Shown here: positions 12,461 to 16,921 of the stretch, one piece after another
Numbering within the stretch: the stretch's first letter is position 1
Layout of the letters: each line of letters starts with the position of its first letter
Assembly: GCA_034110665.1 (NCBI GenBank)
Contig: JAWUYT010000038.1
Coordinates: 9,803-73,802 of the forward strand
DNA from: Polaribacter sp.
GTDB taxonomy: Bacteria; Bacteroidota; Bacteroidia; Flavobacteriales; Flavobacteriaceae
Reading direction: 5' to 3'
DNA: 64,000 nt
Program-made: the position numbers and the translations under genes
Notes under the pieces: generated by a model
Told to the model about the DNA's origin: nothing
Databases searched by the model: none
What the model saw: only the letters and a program-made list of their open reading frames with translations

Positions 12461-12973
12461 TTATAATAACTTTTTTACCTCATTTTTAATAAAAGCAATA
12501 GCTGTTTCTGTGGGTGGTAACGTTTTAGAATAATCAATTAATACATTTTCTCTCATGTCATTTGCAGAGTTTGAAATTTTTGCAACTTGTTTTAGTTTAT
12601 TAATCACTGCACTTTTGGCAGCATAAATAGCGGTCCAACTGTCATCAGAAACATAAATTTGTTGTACTAAATTATGCTCAAATTCTTGTTCTATATTGCC
12701 AATTAAAAGCTGTAAGTATGCGTTTTTGTCTGCTGATATTGGCTGTATTCTAACCAACATTTTTGCAGGGTTTATTCGCTCGCAAAACAATAAAAGTCGT
12801 TCACAAGCTTGTAACTTAATCGGCAAAGAATCTTTTCTTTTTGCAGCCAATAATTCTAATGTCTTTTCAGAATTTTGATTTTTTATAAACCCCTTAAACA
12901 TATAATAAGCAACAAAGCCAGTTACAGCAGCTGGTAAAATGTAGGCGATACTCTCTAATAATTTATCTTCCAT
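12461..12973 (-). CDS. Conserved Bacteroidetes membrane-anchored hypothetical protein
   Basis: N-terminal TM helix, QACERLLLFCERI and EFEHNLVQQIYVS motifs. Confidence 0.7.
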   Translation of the reverse strand: MEDKLLESIAYILPAAVTGFVAYYMFKGFIKNQNSEKTLELLAAKRKDSLPIKLQACERLLLFCERINPAKMLVRIQPISADKNAYLQLLIGNIEQEFEHNLVQQIYVSDDSWTAIYAAKSAVINKLKQVAKISNSANDMRENVLIDYSKTLPPTETAIAFIKNEVKKLL

Positions 12974-12976
12974 GGA

Positions 12977-13696
12977 TTAAAGTAGATTTAAAACATACAA
13001 ATATAAAACTCCTAAAAGTATCGCAATCCCAAAACTTAATAAAGTTCCTATCAAAATATATTCTGTGAGCTTTCTGTCTTTGGATGACGTTAAATCTCCA
13101 AATCTGAAAACAGATTTTGCAGCTAGTAAAAACCCGATAGCTTCCCAATGGTTGGTGATTACAAAAGTGAATACAAATAAACGTTCTAAAATGCCAATGT
13201 AACGCCCTGCTTTTGCTAAAGAATCATCATTTTCTTTTTTGTTTTCAGGATTCCACTGTGTAATAATAAGTTTGATGATAATTGCAGAAACAGAAATAAC
13301 CAACAGTAAAAAAATCAGGAACAATAAGCTTTTTTCTGTGATGATATTCTGCAAAGAAAACGAAAAATTACTGTAGATGGATGTTGCGAATATCAGCAAT
13401 AAAAGATGCAGAATTTGGTCTATAAAAAACCAAATACGTTTGGTTCTTTTCTTTTGAAAATAGAGTTTTAGGATATCAATTAAATAATGAGAACTAATAA
13501 TTAATAAAAAACCGAACCAATATTCTTTTAAATTAAGTTGAAGTATCCCTGCTAATAAAATAGCATGAATGCCAACATGAAAATATAATTTAATAGATTT
13601 TACTTTATTCTCTTCTTTGTCTTTTACCCATTTTTCTGGTTGAAAAACGAAATCACCTAAAAGATGAGCTAATAAAAATTTAAAAAATAAGATCAT
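12977..13696 (-). CDS. DUF3307 family multi-pass membrane protein
   Basis: AHLLGDFVFQ, HVGIH, SHYLID, DQILH, IGILER, AAKSVFRF and EYILIGTL motifs; ATGA-coupled to SatD. Confidence 0.82.
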   Translation of the reverse strand: MILFFKFLLAHLLGDFVFQPEKWVKDKEENKVKSIKLYFHVGIHAILLAGILQLNLKEYWFGFLLIISSHYLIDILKLYFQKKRTKRIWFFIDQILHLLLLIFATSIYSNFSFSLQNIITEKSLLFLIFLLLVISVSAIIIKLIITQWNPENKKENDDSLAKAGRYIGILERLFVFTFVITNHWEAIGFLLAAKSVFRFGDLTSSKDRKLTEYILIGTLLSFGIAILLGVLYLYVLNLL

Positions 13697-14313
13697 CGGT
13701 AAGCGTTTATATTCTGATGGATTAATTTTTGAAATCGTTTTTCTAACTTCATAACTTGTTCAAAACCTGCTCTTGTTTGGCGTTCACTAACTCTCCCTTG
13801 CGTAATTCCTAGCAAAGTTGCAATTTCCTTTTGGGTACTATTCTCCAATTCTAAAGAGATTTTAAAAACTTCTGCAGAATTTATAGTCCAAGAATCCATG
13901 GTTAACAAAGCCAAATCAAAGGCTAAGTTTAATTCTTCATCTATTGCCGGCCAAGGTGTTTTTATGGCTAATGATTGTTTTTTTAAGTAGGTATCAAAAG
14001 CTAATCCAGAATTGATAAATGCTTCTCCGTTCGCTTCTGTAATTTTGTCAGCATCAAATTCCTTTTCTCCAATTCCGATTCCAATTCGAACATCAATATT
14101 GTCTATTTTTTTAAGTGTAGCTTTTATTTTTAAGGCTGTATAAAATGCTTTTTCACAGTTTTCTATTTCTAATTGAAAACTATCTCCTCTATAAATCTGC
14201 CAATATTTTGGAGAGGTACTAAAAGTACTCAAAGTTTCTTTTAGTGTTTTTAACCAAAAATTACCCTCTTTTTTTCGAGAATTGATAATATCACCTGTTA
14301 AAATACTTGTCAT
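13693..14313 (-). CDS. SatD family protein (nucleotidyl-cyclase-like palm domain + C-terminal HTH)
   Basis: ILTGDIINS, YRGDSFQ, VRIGIGIG and NGEAF motifs; HTH TQKEIATLLGITQGRVSER. Confidence 0.82.
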   Translation of the reverse strand: MTSILTGDIINSRKKEGNFWLKTLKETLSTFSTSPKYWQIYRGDSFQLEIENCEKAFYTALKIKATLKKIDNIDVRIGIGIGEKEFDADKITEANGEAFINSGLAFDTYLKKQSLAIKTPWPAIDEELNLAFDLALLTMDSWTINSAEVFKISLELENSTQKEIATLLGITQGRVSERQTRAGFEQVMKLEKRFQKLIHQNINAYR

Positions 14314-14332
14314 AATACTGATTAATTTTTAT

Positions 14333-14364
14333 CAAAGATATACTTTGTTTCATAAAAAAACAAA
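14333..14364 (-). promoter_or_regulatory. Bacteroidetes primary-sigma promoter of SatD
   Basis: -33 TTTG (14364-14361), 20-nt spacer, -7 TATCTTTG (14340-14333). Confidence 0.7.
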
Positions 14365-14365
14365 A

Positions 14366-14443
14366 TTATCTGCCTATAAGCAGATAATTATGTTTATCTG
14401 CTTATAGGCAGATTGTTTTTTTTATCTGCCTATAGGCAGATAA
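14366..14443. repeat. Three 22-bp palindromes at 28-bp period (putative operator array)
   Basis: TTATCTGCCTATAAGCAGATAA (14366), TTATCTGCTTATAGGCAGATTG (14394), TTATCTGCCTATAGGCAGATAA (14422, perfect palindrome). Confidence 0.92.
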
Positions 14444-14599
14444 TAACTGAGTTGATATGGATTCTATATTCTAAAATTCTATGTTTAATTTTATATCAAT
14501 TTTAAAATAATAACTTGTGAATAAAAACTCACAACCTTCCTGTATAGAAACGAATAGTTTGGCTAAATTCACACTTTCAAACTCTATCAAAATATTCTA

Positions 14600-16921
14600 T
14601 TGAATACATACTTAAATTCTTTAAACGAAGCACAAAAGCAGGCAGTCTTACAAAAGGATGGACCCATGATTATTATAGCAGGTGCAGGTTCTGGTAAAAC
14701 ACGTGTTTTAACCTACAGAATTGCACATTTAATGCAATCAGGTGTTGATGCATTTAACATTTTGTCTCTTACATTTACTAATAAAGCAGCTAAAGAAATG
14801 AAGGCAAGGATTGCCGGAGTTGTTGGCCAAAGTGAAGCAAAAAATCTTTGGATGGGAACTTTTCACTCCGTTTTTGCCAGAATTTTACGTTCAGAATCAG
14901 ATAAATTAGGTTTTCCATCAAATTTCACGATTTACGATACACAAGATTCCGTTCGTTTAATAAGTTCTATTATTAAAGAAATGGGTTTAGACAAAGAGCG
15001 TTATAAGCCAAAACAGATTTTAGGCAGAATTTCATCCTTTAAAAATAGTTTAGTTACCGTAAGAGCTTATTTTAATAATGCTGATTTGCAAGAGGCAGAT
15101 TTGCATGCAAGCAGGCCAAAAGTAGGGGATATTTATAGAAATTATGTAGATAGATGTTTTAAAGCGGGTGCCATGGATTTTGATGATTTATTATTGAGAA
15201 CCAATGAATTACTAGCACGATTTCCTGAATCTTTAGCAAAATATCAAGACCGTTTTAGATATATCATGGTCGATGAATACCAAGATACAAACCATTCGCA
15301 ATATATAATTGTGAGAGCATTGGCAGATAAATTTGGAAATATTTGTGTGGTTGGTGACGATTCTCAAAGTATTTATAGTTTTAGAGGTGCTAATATTGAG
15401 AACATCTTAAACTTTCAGAAAGATTATCCCGATGTAAAAACGTTTAAGCTTGAACAAAATTACCGTTCAACAAAAAATATAGTGAATGCTGCAAATTCGG
15501 TAATTGCAAGAAACAAAACAAAATTAGACAAAGAAGTTTGGACGTCTAATGATGCGGGGGATTCTATCAACGTAATGCGCACCATTTCTGACGGAGAAGA
15601 AGGTCGTTTTGTAGCCCAATCTATTTGGGAAAACCAAATGAATAATCAATTAACACCCGATGATTTTTGTGTATTGTATAGAACAAATTCACAATCAAGG
15701 GCCATTGAAGATGCGTTAAGAAAAAAAGGAATTGATTATAAAATTTATGGTGGAATTTCTTTCTACCAAAGAAAAGAAATCAAAGATATTTTATCTTATT
15801 TGCGCATTTTAATCAATCCTAATGATGAAGAAGCATTTAAGAGAATTATCAATTATCCTGCAAGAGGAATTGGTGCAACAACCATCGATAGATTAACAAT
15901 CGCAGCAAATCATTATAAAAAATCAATTTTTGATGTTTTAAAGTATATTGATAAAATCGATTTAAAAATAAATTCTGGAACTAAAAATAAGCTTCAGAAT
16001 TTTATGAATATGATTTTGAGTTTACAAATAGAATCGCAAACTAAAAATGCATTTGAAATTGCAGAGATTGTTGTAAAACAGGCAAAATTAATTAAAGATT
16101 TAGAAAAGGATGGTACACCAGAGGCCGTTAGTAAAGTAGAAAATGTTCAGGAACTTTTAAACGGAATTAAAGATTTTATTACTGATAAAATAGAACAAGG
16201 AGAAGATGCCTCTTTAACTTCGTTTTTAGAAGATGTTGCATTGGCCACAGATTTCGATTCTAAAAAAGATGATGACAAACCAAGTGTTTCTTTAATGACC
16301 ATTCATCAATCTAAAGGTTTAGAGTATATGTATGTTTATATTGTTGGTTTAGAGGAAAATTTATTTCCGTCAGCAATGAGTATGAATACAAGAAGTGAGT
16401 TAGAAGAGGAGCGCAGGTTGTTTTATGTAGCGATCACAAGAGCAGAAAAAGTTGCTTATTTAACTTATGCACAAACACGCTATCGATGGGGTAAACTAAT
16501 TGATGCTGAACCAAGCAGGTTTTTAGAAGAAATTGATGATCAGTATTTATATTATATTACACCAAAAATGCCTGAACCCTCTATAAATAAATTTATAGAT
16601 AAGAGTATTTTTGAGGATGCACCTAAAGGAATTCGTTTCCAAAAACCAATTCAGCGTAAAAAAATGGAACGTGATTTGGTTAAAAAGAAAGAAATCATTG
16701 TTCCTAAAAACTTAAAAAAAGCATCAGACACTGCGTCTAAAGCAAATTTATTTGATAATAATATTGTTGTTGGTAATATTATTGAACATGATCGTTTTGG
16801 CAGAGGAGAAGTACTTTCTTTAGAAGGAAAAGGTCCAGATAAAAAAGCAATGATTAAATTTGGAACCGCAGGAAAGAAAAATCTTTTACTACGTTTTGTG
16901 AAATTAAAAATTATTGGTTAA
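14600..16921 (+). CDS. pcrA: ATP-dependent DNA helicase PcrA/UvrD
   Basis: AGAGSGKT, VDEYQD, QNYRST and EERRLFYVA motifs; Tudor-like C-terminus; TTG start. Confidence 0.92.
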   Translation: MNTYLNSLNEAQKQAVLQKDGPMIIIAGAGSGKTRVLTYRIAHLMQSGVDAFNILSLTFTNKAAKEMKARIAGVVGQSEAKNLWMGTFHSVFARILRSESDKLGFPSNFTIYDTQDSVRLISSIIKEMGLDKERYKPKQILGRISSFKNSLVTVRAYFNNADLQEADLHASRPKVGDIYRNYVDRCFKAGAMDFDDLLLRTNELLARFPESLAKYQDRFRYIMVDEYQDTNHSQYIIVRALADKFGNICVVGDDSQSIYSFRGANIENILNFQKDYPDVKTFKLEQNYRSTKNIVNAANSVIARNKTKLDKEVWTSNDAGDSINVMRTISDGEEGRFVAQSIWENQMNNQLTPDDFCVLYRTNSQSRAIEDALRKKGIDYKIYGGISFYQRKEIKDILSYLRILINPNDEEAFKRIINYPARGIGATTIDRLTIAANHYKKSIFDVLKYIDKIDLKINSGTKNKLQNFMNMILSLQIESQTKNAFEIAEIVVKQAKLIKDLEKDGTPEAVSKVENVQELLNGIKDFITDKIEQGEDASLTSFLEDVALATDFDSKKDDDKPSVSLMTIHQSKGLEYMYVYIVGLEENLFPSAMSMNTRSELEEERRLFYVAITRAEKVAYLTYAQTRYRWGKLIDAEPSRFLEEIDDQYLYYITPKMPEPSINKFIDKSIFEDAPKGIRFQKPIQRKKMERDLVKKKEIIVPKNLKKASDTASKANLFDNNIVVGNIIEHDRFGRGEVLSLEGKGPDKKAMIKFGTAGKKNLLLRFVKLKIIG

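What the first reader, a model, noticed from the sequence alone, without database searches (positions are those of the whole stretch)
12977..14443. SatD cyclase-like/HTH protein plus DUF3307 membrane protein under a triple-palindrome array: candidate self-regulated nucleotide-signalling or toxin-antitoxin module
Seen: three 22-bp palindromes (consensus TTATCTGCCTATAGGCAGATAA) at an exact 28-bp period (14366, 14394, 14422) begin 2 bp upstream of the -33 box of the SatD promoter. Copies 1 and 2 are also near reverse complements of each other. SatD keeps both acidic motifs of class III nucleotidyl-cyclase/palm domains (GDIINS, RGDSFQ) plus RIGIG.G, and ends in an HTH. It is ATGA-coupled to a membrane protein with clustered HxxxD/HxxxH/DxxxH metal-ligand motifs. 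Established: SatD is named from the streptococcal sat operon and I know of no assigned biochemistry; cyclase + transmembrane effector is the Pycsar layout; antitoxin HTHs bind tandem palindromes. Inference: the HTH binds the array cooperatively, and the palm domain makes or senses a nucleotide that controls an intramembrane metallohydrolase or effector, e.g. in phage or stress defence.
Basis: partly seen in the sequence, partly recalled or inferred. Interest (0 to 1): 0.78.

Follow-up and report, generated by a model that had tools for sequence, protein, structure and literature searches.

The report
Self-repressed SatD–DUF3307 membrane-protein cassette
A marine Polaribacter carries a small, optional two-gene unit in which a DNA-binding protein with a nucleotide-cyclase-like fold almost certainly shuts off its own promoter through three evenly spaced binding sites and thereby controls a membrane protein of unknown function; the unit is widespread but unstudied.

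Summary
Three 20-22 bp palindromes (TATCTGC-N6-GCAGATA) lie at an exact 28-bp period, next to the satD promoter. They occur nowhere else in the 2.9-Mb genome. In 99 related loci the best period is 28 bp in 92, usually with three sites. The half-site sequence changes together with the SatD recognition helix, so SatD very probably binds this array and regulates only its own operon.

The SatD N-domain is a confident palm fold. It scores equally against GGDEF domains, class III cyclases, GTP cyclohydrolase III, Y-family polymerases and Cas10. Two near-invariant Asp sit where the metal ligands would be, but there is no class III Asn/Arg motif and no Pfam cyclase hit.

DUF3307 always follows satD (100 of 100 loci; no orphans in 61 genomes). 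It has a conserved His/Asp cluster and no solved structural relative. I found no defence-system match and no defence context. In Polaribacter the pair is an optional insert between a PcrA-like helicase gene and a DUF7935 gene, and two genomes keep deletion scars.

A Streptococcus pyogenes Tn-seq meta-analysis calls satD its only essential accessory gene, which fits a repressor or antitoxin of a harmful partner.

This scan has noted the same cassette before on other DNA (179 notes). The literature searched holds no mechanism for it.

The parts
14422..14443 (.). Operator O1, distal to satD: TTATCTGCCTATAGGCAGATAA, a perfect palindrome
14394..14415 (.). Operator O2, the middle site; one arm deviates (…GCAGATTG on the + strand)
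14366..14387 (.). Operator O3, proximal to satD. It abuts the TTTG element
14361..14368 (-). TAATTTTG. Its TA is the end of O3. This is either the -33 TTTG of the satD promoter (preferred) or an alternative -7 box. It sits at the lattice phase (+16 from an operator centre) where 45 of 59 perfect TAnnTTTG boxes fall in related loci
14333..14340 (-). TATCTTTG, a Bacteroidota-type -7 box. It lies 20 nt after the TTTG and ends 19 nt before the satD ATG
13693..14313 (-). satD (206 aa). Palm domain at residues 1 to about 125 (about 13939-14313). Helical C-domain with the HTH at residues 156-182 (13768-13848) and the recognition helix at residues 172-182
12977..13696 (-). DUF3307 membrane protein (239 aa; about 7-8 predicted helices in two bundles, 1-113 and 120-233). 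Its ATG overlaps the satD stop codon (ATGA)
12998..13005 (-). TATATTTG box inside the 3' end of DUF3307, 24 nt before the DUF7935 ATG. Probably the promoter of the downstream core gene. This stretch is retained in the deletion scars of satD-less genomes
12461..12973 (-). DUF7935 gene. A core gene of the genus that marks the downstream border of the cassette. It is not part of the cassette

Best explanation
This is a self-contained, negatively autoregulated two-gene cassette.

SatD binds as dimers, through its C-terminal HTH, to three phased operators (TATCTGC-N6-GCAGATA every 28 bp). These abut or overlap the Bacteroidota-type promoter elements. SatD thereby represses transcription of satD and of the translationally coupled DUF3307 gene. 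Its only target is its own operon.

The N-terminal palm domain keeps a two-Asp metal or nucleotide site but lacks the class III cyclase catalytic Asn/Arg. It most likely acts as the ligand-sensing and/or oligomerising domain that sets how tightly the array is occupied. A catalytic role is not excluded.

DUF3307 is the payload: a polytopic membrane protein with an intramembrane His/Asp (metal-type) centre. Its level must be kept low. Losing the repressor while keeping DUF3307 is expected to be harmful, which would make the pair behave like a HipBA-style toxin-antitoxin operon.

Shown here: the array, its uniqueness in the genome, its recurrence, the helix-operator co-variation, the strict gene pairing, the folds and the indel behaviour. 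Inferred: repression rather than activation, the ligand, the toxicity and the chemistry of DUF3307.
For: The array is real and unique in the genome.

- Recurrence. In 99 related loci the best period within 24-33 bp is 28 in 92, and 83 of these have z of at least 5. There are three sites in 67 of 78 loci.
- Co-variation. Half-site sequence tracks the recognition helix: TATCTGC with TQGRVSERQ, ATTCGG with SESSASERR, TATAAC with SQAGISKR, TATTGGC with SQGTISQS. The partial Mantel r is 0.54 given N-domain distance, with 0 of 2000 permutations reaching it. The residual correlation with the N-domain is 0.04. The highest mutual information is between residue 174 and half-site base 5.
- Module behaviour. 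In two Polaribacter loci (L015, L017) the SatD C-domain and the operator type differ (45% identity) while DUF3307 stays 68-90% identical. The HTH and operator therefore evolve as a unit.
- Promoter geometry. 45 of 59 perfect TAnnTTTG boxes lie at one phase of the lattice. In 7 loci O3 fills the -33/-7 spacer, in 2 loci O3 lies downstream of the box after O2, and 7 loci share the window's layout.
- Gene pairing. DUF3307 follows satD in 100 of 100 loci, with ATGA overlap in 37 of 96 distinct DUF3307 sequences. The two co-occur in 20 of 20 genomes, with no orphan in 61 genomes.
- HipB parallel. The HTH profile's best solved match is HipB (E 9e-4). The E. coli hipBA operators also come in pairs 28 bp apart.
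- Literature. S. pyogenes satD is essential in Tn-seq yet present in only 178 of 249 genomes (PMC11323703).
Against: - There are no binding or expression data.
- In this window the operators lie upstream of, and only touch, the preferred -33 element. Activation cannot be excluded here.
- I could not verify that the S. pyogenes gene is followed by a DUF3307 gene.
- About 60% of the Polaribacter genomes sampled lack the cassette, and two show deletion scars. It is therefore not strongly addictive.
- The near-invariance of D8, S12, R42, D44, Q47 and R76 looks more like an active site than a passive sensor, and this model does not explain that.
- Mantel-type tests on related sequences overstate significance.
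Confidence: 0.6

Rival explanations
1. Membrane-signal regulator pair. DUF3307 is a sensor or anti-repressor that captures or modifies SatD in response to a membrane, metal or pH cue, as in sigma/anti-sigma or Mlc-PtsG logic. The cassette would be a stress-response module, in line with the old 'secretion and acid tolerance' name, and not a toxin-antitoxin-like pair.
For: Strict pairing and translational coupling suggest a stoichiometric complex. The position is fixed and vertically inherited across Polaribacter and Tenacibaculum, next to housekeeping genes. The cassette is frequently lost without an obvious penalty. S. mutans SatE was detected in membrane vesicles and is listed among acid-tolerance proteins (PMC13492114).
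Against: No other operator site exists in the genome, so the regulator would control nothing but itself and its sensor. This model does not explain the essentiality of satD in S. pyogenes.
Confidence: 0.2
2. Nucleotide second-messenger defence system. The SatD palm domain makes a cyclic or linear nucleotide on infection or stress, and this activates DUF3307 as a membrane-disrupting effector.
For: The fold is a palm with both metal-position Asp near-invariant. The partner is a multi-pass membrane protein. Earlier notes of this scan place related cassettes inside R-M or BREX loci in other phyla (not tested here).
Against: Neither protein matches a PADLOC model. There is no Pfam cyclase or GGDEF hit, even for the isolated N-domain. 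The class III GDxVNxAxR Asn/Arg has no conserved counterpart. Neighbours in 30 other Bacteroidota loci are heterogeneous housekeeping genes. Only 1 viral contig and 3 plasmid records carry a relative. A cyclase fused to a repressor of its own operon is not the known Pycsar or CBASS layout.
Confidence: 0.1
3. SatD is an activator. The three sites upstream of the -33 element recruit RNA polymerase, so the cassette is positively autoregulated.
For: In this window and in 6 close relatives the array lies upstream of, and only abuts, TTTG-N20-TAnnTTTG. The HTH scores as sigma-70 region 4-like.
Against: In 7 loci O3 fills the -33/-7 spacer, in 2 more O3 lies downstream of the box after O2, and in 13 loci the -7 box overlaps the end of O3. 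These positions are incompatible with activation. The operator end shares bases with the promoter element.
Confidence: 0.07
4. The palindromes are RNA or DNA structural elements unrelated to SatD, such as intrinsic terminators, REP-like repeats or 5'-UTR hairpins.
For: A consensus scan calls hairpin-plus-T-run sites on both strands at 14364-14413.
Against: The region lies between two divergent 5' ends, so there is nothing to terminate. The motif is unique in the genome. Many orthologous arrays have only 5-bp AT-rich arms (ATTCG-N10-CGAAT), which could not fold stably. The sequence co-varies with protein residues.
Confidence: 0.02

Closest known systems
SatD / SatE of the Streptococcus mutans sat operon (Pfam SatD PF16264 with DUF3307 PF11750)
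   Same: Same two protein families in the same order. NCBI already names the close Polaribacter relatives 'SatD family protein'. SatE is a membrane-associated protein in S. mutans.
   Different: No biochemical function, operator or regulatory mechanism is described for the family in the literature I could search. The Polaribacter protein scores 28.0 bits against the local SatD model, 1 bit below its cut-off. I did not verify the streptococcal gene order myself.
HipB antitoxin/repressor and the hipBA operators of E. coli
   Same: HipB is the best solved sequence match of the SatD HTH profile (E 9e-4; pairwise 33% identity over 30 aa). Its operators are TATC-type inverted repeats in tandem, spaced 28 bp within each pair (positions 295, 323, 362, 390 of L161). 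It autoregulates a two-gene operon whose second product is harmful.
   Different: HipB is an 88-aa HTH protein without a palm domain. Its partner HipA is a soluble kinase, not a membrane protein. The half-sites are 2 bp closer (TATCC-N8-GGATA against TATCTGC-N6-GCAGATA). The array is 2+2 with a 39-bp gap, not 3 in a row.
Palm-domain nucleotidyl cyclases and relatives (GGDEF, e.g. 6eib and 4zvg; class III adenylyl cyclase Ma1120, 4wp9; GTP cyclohydrolase III, 2qv6)
   Same: Same fold. Foldseek gives E about 1e-3 at probability 1.00. VIA-align gives Z 8.4-9.6 with rmsd 2.6-3.6 over 107-128 residues. The Asp at the end of strand 1 and the Asp in the strand 2-3 hairpin align with the metal ligands in a low-confidence profile alignment.
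   Different: Z scores tie with Y-family polymerases and Cas10/Cmr2, so no subfamily can be assigned. There is no HMM-level match. The Asn/Arg of GDxVNxAxR and the GG(D/E)EF signature are absent. The domain is fused to an HTH and acts, as far as can be inferred, at its own promoter.
Pycsar / CBASS-type cyclase plus transmembrane effector defence systems
   Same: A two-gene layout of a palm-fold protein followed by a multi-pass membrane protein.
   Different: No PADLOC model matches. There is no defence-island context here. The first protein is a DNA-binding autoregulator.

Membership tests
Pfam SatD (PF16264) | Full-length match to the family HMM | tested here: met
   E 2.1e-6, 28.0 bits (cut-off 29), covering 4-202 of 211 profile positions; the 100%-identical database protein and nearly all close relatives carry precomputed PF16264, and sources name them 'SatD family protein'. 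The score is borderline but the match is full-length and consistent.
Pfam DUF3307 (PF11750) | Match to the family HMM above the cut-off | tested here: met
   109.1 bits against a cut-off of 23, covering residues 3-124. The C-terminal half (150-239) is outside the model but is the most conserved part.
SatD-DUF3307 cassette | satD immediately followed by DUF3307, with co-occurrence in genomes | tested here: met
   100 of 100 loci, with the junction mostly between -4 and +3 nt; the same 20 of 61 genomes carry both genes, with no orphan of either.
Class III nucleotidyl cyclase (PF00211) | Palm (beta-alpha-beta-beta-alpha-beta) catalytic fold | tested here: met
   model pLDDT 97. 4wp9 gives Z 8.5 (rmsd 3.0 over 119 residues) and 1ybu gives Z 8.4. 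These tie with other palm families.
Class III nucleotidyl cyclase (PF00211) | Two metal-binding Asp (FxD in strand 1; GD in the strand 2-3 hairpin) | tested here: inconclusive
   hhalign pairs D8 with the FTD Asp and D44 with the IGD Asp, but at E 0.03 and probability under 2%; both Asp are conserved at 90% or more, or invariant. No coordinates were available for a superposition.
Class III nucleotidyl cyclase (PF00211) | Transition-state Asn and Arg of the GDxVNxAxR helix | tested here: not met
   the motif is present in all 25 cyclase domains translated (14 were used for the alignment) and has no conserved counterpart in SatD. The family consensus there is SNGxAFxxSG, with no conserved N or R.
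Class III nucleotidyl cyclase (PF00211) | HMM-level sequence membership | tested here: not met
   no PF00211 or PF00990 hit, even for the isolated N-domain at E up to 10; only E of about 1 to Ma1120.
GGDEF diguanylate cyclase (PF00990) | GG(D/E)EF signature and HMM match | tested here: not met
   The hairpin reads YRGDSFQ. There is no Pfam hit. The fold match is Z 9.0-9.2.
Pycsar/CBASS-type defence | Match to curated defence-system protein models | tested here: not met
   0 PADLOC families for SatD and for DUF3307.
Pycsar/CBASS-type defence | Defence-island or mobile-element context | tested here: not met
   fixed position between the PcrA-like helicase and DUF7935 in Polaribacter and Tenacibaculum, and heterogeneous housekeeping neighbours elsewhere in Bacteroidota; 3 plasmid records, 0 phage records and 1 viral contig. 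Other phyla were not examined here.
Type II toxin-antitoxin operon (HipBA-like) | Upstream gene encodes a DNA-binding autorepressor with tandem palindromic operators at its own promoter | tested here: met
   by comparative inference. There is no binding assay.
Type II toxin-antitoxin operon (HipBA-like) | The downstream product is toxic and is neutralised by the upstream product | not testable with these tools
   The only lead is literature: satD is essential yet accessory in S. pyogenes (PMC11323703).
Type II toxin-antitoxin operon (HipBA-like) | Accessory, patchy distribution | tested here: met
   present in 14 of 36 sampled genomes of the genus, as a precise presence/absence at one locus; deletion scars in two genomes.

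The most novel reading that the evidence does not exclude
SatD-DUF3307 is an undescribed, very widespread class of toxin-antitoxin or abortive-type module. A palm-domain protein that binds, or makes, a nucleotide or metal-nucleotide signal sits as a phased oligomer on its own promoter. It holds a membrane-damaging His/Asp metalloprotein in check and releases it when the ligand changes. The fast co-divergence of HTH and operator would then serve to insulate co-resident cassettes from each other.
Probability: 0.2. Interest if true: 0.8.

Novelty: new variant of a known kind. Interest (0 to 1): 0.55.

Why it matters
The cassette is common. SatD has 1427 representative clusters at E of 0.001 or better in a 50%-clustered library, yet no paper I could find assigns it a mechanism.

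The comparative data give a ready-made recognition code, from helix residues 173-179 to half-site bases 4-7. They also give a defined operator array and a clear genetic prediction: satD cannot be lost while DUF3307 is kept.

If the palm domain senses or makes a nucleotide, this would be a new way of coupling nucleotide chemistry directly to a promoter and a membrane protein. It would also explain the odd 'essential accessory gene' of S. pyogenes.

If not, it is still a tidy new example of HipB-like phased-operator autoregulation, built in Bacteroidota so that the operator period equals the -33/-7 promoter spacing.

Tried and rejected
- REP or dispersed repeat: rejected. The motif is unique in the genome.
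- Intrinsic terminators: rejected. The site lies between divergent 5' ends, and orthologous arms are too weak to fold.
- Wider regulon: not found. The only other near-match lies inside a long open frame.
- PDB sequence searches: the single protein gave nothing. The full-length profile hit only HTH proteins, plus cyclases at E of about 1. The N-domain profile gave only chance hits.
- DUF3307 fold: Foldseek against PDB had a best E of 0.9. VIA-align against 48,161 chains had a best Z of 8.4 on helical bundles, which is noise level for helical proteins.
- ESM Atlas: returned only DUF3307 clusters, and nothing for the C-terminal half. Pfam on the C-terminal half gave nothing usable.
- PADLOC: no hit for either protein. 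The neighbouring helicase matches GajB models only because it is a UvrD-family helicase. It is a core gene, and I did not look for a GajA partner.
- PHROGs: one 'membrane protein' family for the DUF3307 N-half.
- Mobile elements: phage, plasmid and viral-contig searches found almost nothing.
- Literature: the searches for satD/DUF3307 were mostly swamped by 'satDNA'. The Kremer et al. 2001 paper is not held. The supplements of PMC11323703 hold no satD or DUF3307 rows.
- Streptococcus SatD sequence: I could not reach one with the tools left, so the link to the S. pyogenes gene rests on its eggNOG name.
- The search for related loci with the 136-sequence alignment failed because no conserved stretch was available. 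A 17-sequence alignment worked.
Full report
**1. The observation**

The minus strand of 12977-14443 holds two overlapping genes behind a 286-bp intergenic region shared with a divergent UvrD/PcrA-type helicase gene at 14600-16921.
- Three copies of a 20-22 bp palindrome start at 14366, 14394 and 14422, exactly 28 bp apart.
- The 18-nt core occurs three times in the window, against 0.09 expected.
- It occurs nowhere else in the 2.88-Mb, 87%-complete genome.
- A looser scan found one extra 1-mismatch site, inside a 353-codon open frame.

The array is therefore real, non-random and private to this promoter. If the flanking T/A is counted, the half-sites (TTATCTGC) recur about every 14 bp in alternating orientation. 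This is why inverted repeats also appear between neighbouring copies.

**2. The proteins**

Close relatives are named 'SatD family protein' in Polaribacter genomes, so the window comes from a Polaribacter.

SatD (206 aa):
- It matches Pfam SatD over its whole length (28.0 bits, 1 bit under the cut-off).
- It has a Sigma70_r4-type HTH at residues 156-182.

DUF3307 (239 aa):
- It scores 109 bits.
- Its ATG overlaps the satD stop codon.

**3. Fold of SatD**

With 136 diverse homologues the AlphaFold model has pLDDT 97 and pTM 0.93.

Residues 1 to about 125 form a palm domain.
- Foldseek puts GGDEF domains and the class III cyclase Ma1120 on top (E about 1e-3, probability 1.00).
- VIA-align gives Z 8.3-9.6 for five groups, all within one Z unit: GTP cyclohydrolase III, GGDEF domains, class III cyclases, Dpo4-type polymerases and Cmr2.
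- The fold is therefore the generic nucleotide-processing palm, and no subfamily can be named.

At the sequence level:
- G7, D8, S12, R42, G43, D44, F46, Q47, R76, G80 and G82 are conserved in at least 90% of the 136 homologues.
- A profile-profile alignment against 14 canonical Bacteroidota class III cyclases is weak (E 0.03). It is topologically sensible: D8 pairs with the FTD Asp, D44 with the IGD Asp, and R76 with the RIGIH Arg.
- The cyclases' GDTVNxAxR helix, which carries the catalytic Asn and Arg, has no conserved counterpart.
- No Pfam cyclase or GGDEF model matches, even for the isolated N-domain.

I therefore treat 'works with a metal-nucleotide-type site' as plausible and 'is a class III cyclase' as not supported.

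**4. The array is SatD's operator**

I collected 20 orthologous loci from related genomes and 80 more across Bacteroidota.

Recurrence:
- Searching 200 bp upstream of each satD for three palindromic, mutually similar 20-mers at any period from 24 to 33 bp, the best period was 28 in 92 of 99 loci.
- 83 loci had period 28 and scored at least 5 SD above shuffles.
- Three sites is the mode (67 of 78 loci), with a range of 2-5.

Co-variation:
- The half-site differs by lineage and tracks the recognition helix:

| Half-site | Recognition helix |
|---|---|
| TATCTGC | TQGRVSERQ |
| ATTCGG | SESSASERR |
| TATAAC | SQAGISKR |
| TATCGG | (S/T)QSSVSE |
| TATTGGC | SQGTISQS |

- Operator distance correlates with helix distance after controlling for N-domain distance (partial r 0.54, with 0 of 2000 permutations reaching it).
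- Nothing is left for the N-domain once the helix is controlled (0.04).
- The strongest coupling is residue 174 with half-site base 5, followed by residues 173, 175, 177 and 179.
- Relatedness inflates such tests. However, the same helix-operator pairs recur in separate families, and two Polaribacter loci carry an ATTCG-type SatD C-domain (45% identical to ours) next to a DUF3307 that is 68-90% identical. The HTH and operator thus move as one module.

**5. Promoter geometry and direction of regulation**

Bacteroidota promoters use TTTG near -33 and TAnnTTTG near -7 (established knowledge).
- Across the loci, 45 of 59 perfect TAnnTTTG boxes end 16 nt (mod 28) after an operator centre. The terminal TA of the operator is then the TA of the box.
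- In 7 loci the TTTG after O2 and the box after O3 form a promoter whose spacer is filled by O3.
- In 13 loci the box overlaps the end of O3.
- In 2 loci the box follows O2, so O3 lies downstream of it, over the likely transcription start.
- In 7 loci, including this window, O3 is followed by TTTG, and a perfect box lies 28 bp further on (14361-14368 and 14333-14340).

The operator period thus equals the -33/-7 distance. The array always touches or covers core promoter elements, which argues for repression. In this particular window activation cannot be strictly excluded.

**6. The partner and the unit**

Pairing:
- DUF3307 follows satD in 100 of 100 loci, with ATGA overlap in 37 of 96 distinct DUF3307 sequences.
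- Among 61 related genomes the same 20 carry both genes, and none carries only one.

Conservation:
- H11, D15, H40, H44, H70, D74, D93 and H97 are invariant or nearly so.
- The C-terminal half is extremely well conserved (…AAKSVFRFGDL…LTEYILIGT…).

Structure:
- The model (pLDDT 90) is all-helical, with two bundles.
- It has no meaningful match to any solved structure.

**7. Context**

In Polaribacter and Tenacibaculum the pair sits between the helicase gene and a DUF7935 gene.
- DUF7935 is present in 46 of 46 good genomes of the genus. satD is present in 14 of 36.
- Where satD is absent, the helicase gene lies directly beside DUF7935.
- In two such genomes (L039, L040) the 416-423 bp spacer still holds decayed satD codons and the last 70-80 nt of DUF3307. 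The pair was therefore ancestral there and was lost by deletion.

In 30 other Bacteroidota loci the neighbours share no family in more than 3 of 60 proteins, and they are mostly housekeeping.

Neither protein matches a PADLOC defence model. Plasmid, phage and viral collections hold almost no relatives.

**8. Literature**

I found no mechanistic paper on SatD or DUF3307. Two items bear on function.
- A pangenome Tn-seq meta-analysis of Streptococcus pyogenes reports satD as the single accessory gene that is essential in all strains tested, although only 178 of 249 genomes carry it (PMC11323703). An essential yet dispensable-by-absence gene is the classic behaviour of a repressor or antitoxin of a harmful neighbour. 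I could not check the neighbour there.
- S. mutans SatE was detected in membrane vesicles (PMC13492114).

**9. Comparison with HipB**

- The SatD HTH profile's best solved match is HipB (E 9e-4).
- I confirmed that the four hipBA operators of E. coli K-12 lie at 28, 39 and 28 bp spacing.
- The resemblance is in how the system works: tandem TATC-type operators at a 28-bp period, and autoregulation of a two-gene operon.
- It is not family membership. HipB has no palm domain, its half-sites are 2 bp closer, and its partner is a soluble kinase.

**10. Verdict**

The most likely mechanism is negative autoregulation of a two-gene cassette whose payload is the membrane protein, with the palm domain as sensor or oligomeriser (confidence 0.6). 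The cyclic-nucleotide defence reading is weakly supported (0.1).

This scan has already noted the same cassette on other DNA (179 notes). Those notes include the operator array, the helix-operator link and the HipB parallel. I re-derived these here independently. I add the lattice-promoter phase statistics, the deletion scars, the HTH/operator module swap and the S. pyogenes essentiality lead.

Noticed in passing
window 14514-14535: A 22-bp palindrome, GTTGTGAGTTTTTATTCACAAG (TGTGA-N8-TCACA), lies in the helicase-proximal part of the intergenic region. Its core, TTTTTATTCACAA, is conserved upstream of the helicase gene in most Polaribacter loci, including those without satD. It may be a regulator site for the PcrA/UvrD-like helicase.
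   Followed up: partly
window 12998-13005 (minus strand): A TATATTTG -7-type box lies inside the last codons of DUF3307, 24 nt before the DUF7935 ATG. The same stretch survives in satD-less genomes as part of the deletion scar. It is probably the DUF7935 promoter, so that core gene does not depend on the satD promoter.
   Followed up: partly
L039:1085-1500 and L040:2011-2433: Two satD-negative Polaribacter genomes keep a spacer of about 420 bp with decayed fragments of satD (matching window 14173-14212) and of the DUF3307 3' end (matching window 12986-13073). These are scars of cassette loss.
   Followed up: yes
L015, L017 (Polaribacter loci): The SatD C-domain is only 45% identical to the window's and the operators are of ATTCG type, yet DUF3307 is 68-90% identical. 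The DNA-binding module and its operators were swapped or diverged rapidly relative to the membrane partner.
   Followed up: partly
L070 (contig JBLHIE010000005.1, labelled Arenicella sp. MAG): A contig assigned to a gammaproteobacterial MAG carries a Polaribacter/Tenacibaculum-type cassette (60% identity, ATTCG operators) with a long divergent ORF upstream, as at the helicase position in the Polaribacter and Tenacibaculum loci; I did not check that ORF's identity. This looks like a binning error and not like gene transfer.
   Followed up: no
window 14600: The helicase ORF begins at a TTG codon (MNTYLNSLNEAQ…). No in-frame ATG lies upstream of it in the open frame.
   Followed up: no
G000 contig C45:16178-16197: This is the only other near-match to the operator in the genome (TATCTGCTGTATCGCTGATA, 1 mismatch). 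It is single and lies inside a 353-codon open frame, so it is probably chance.
   Followed up: partly
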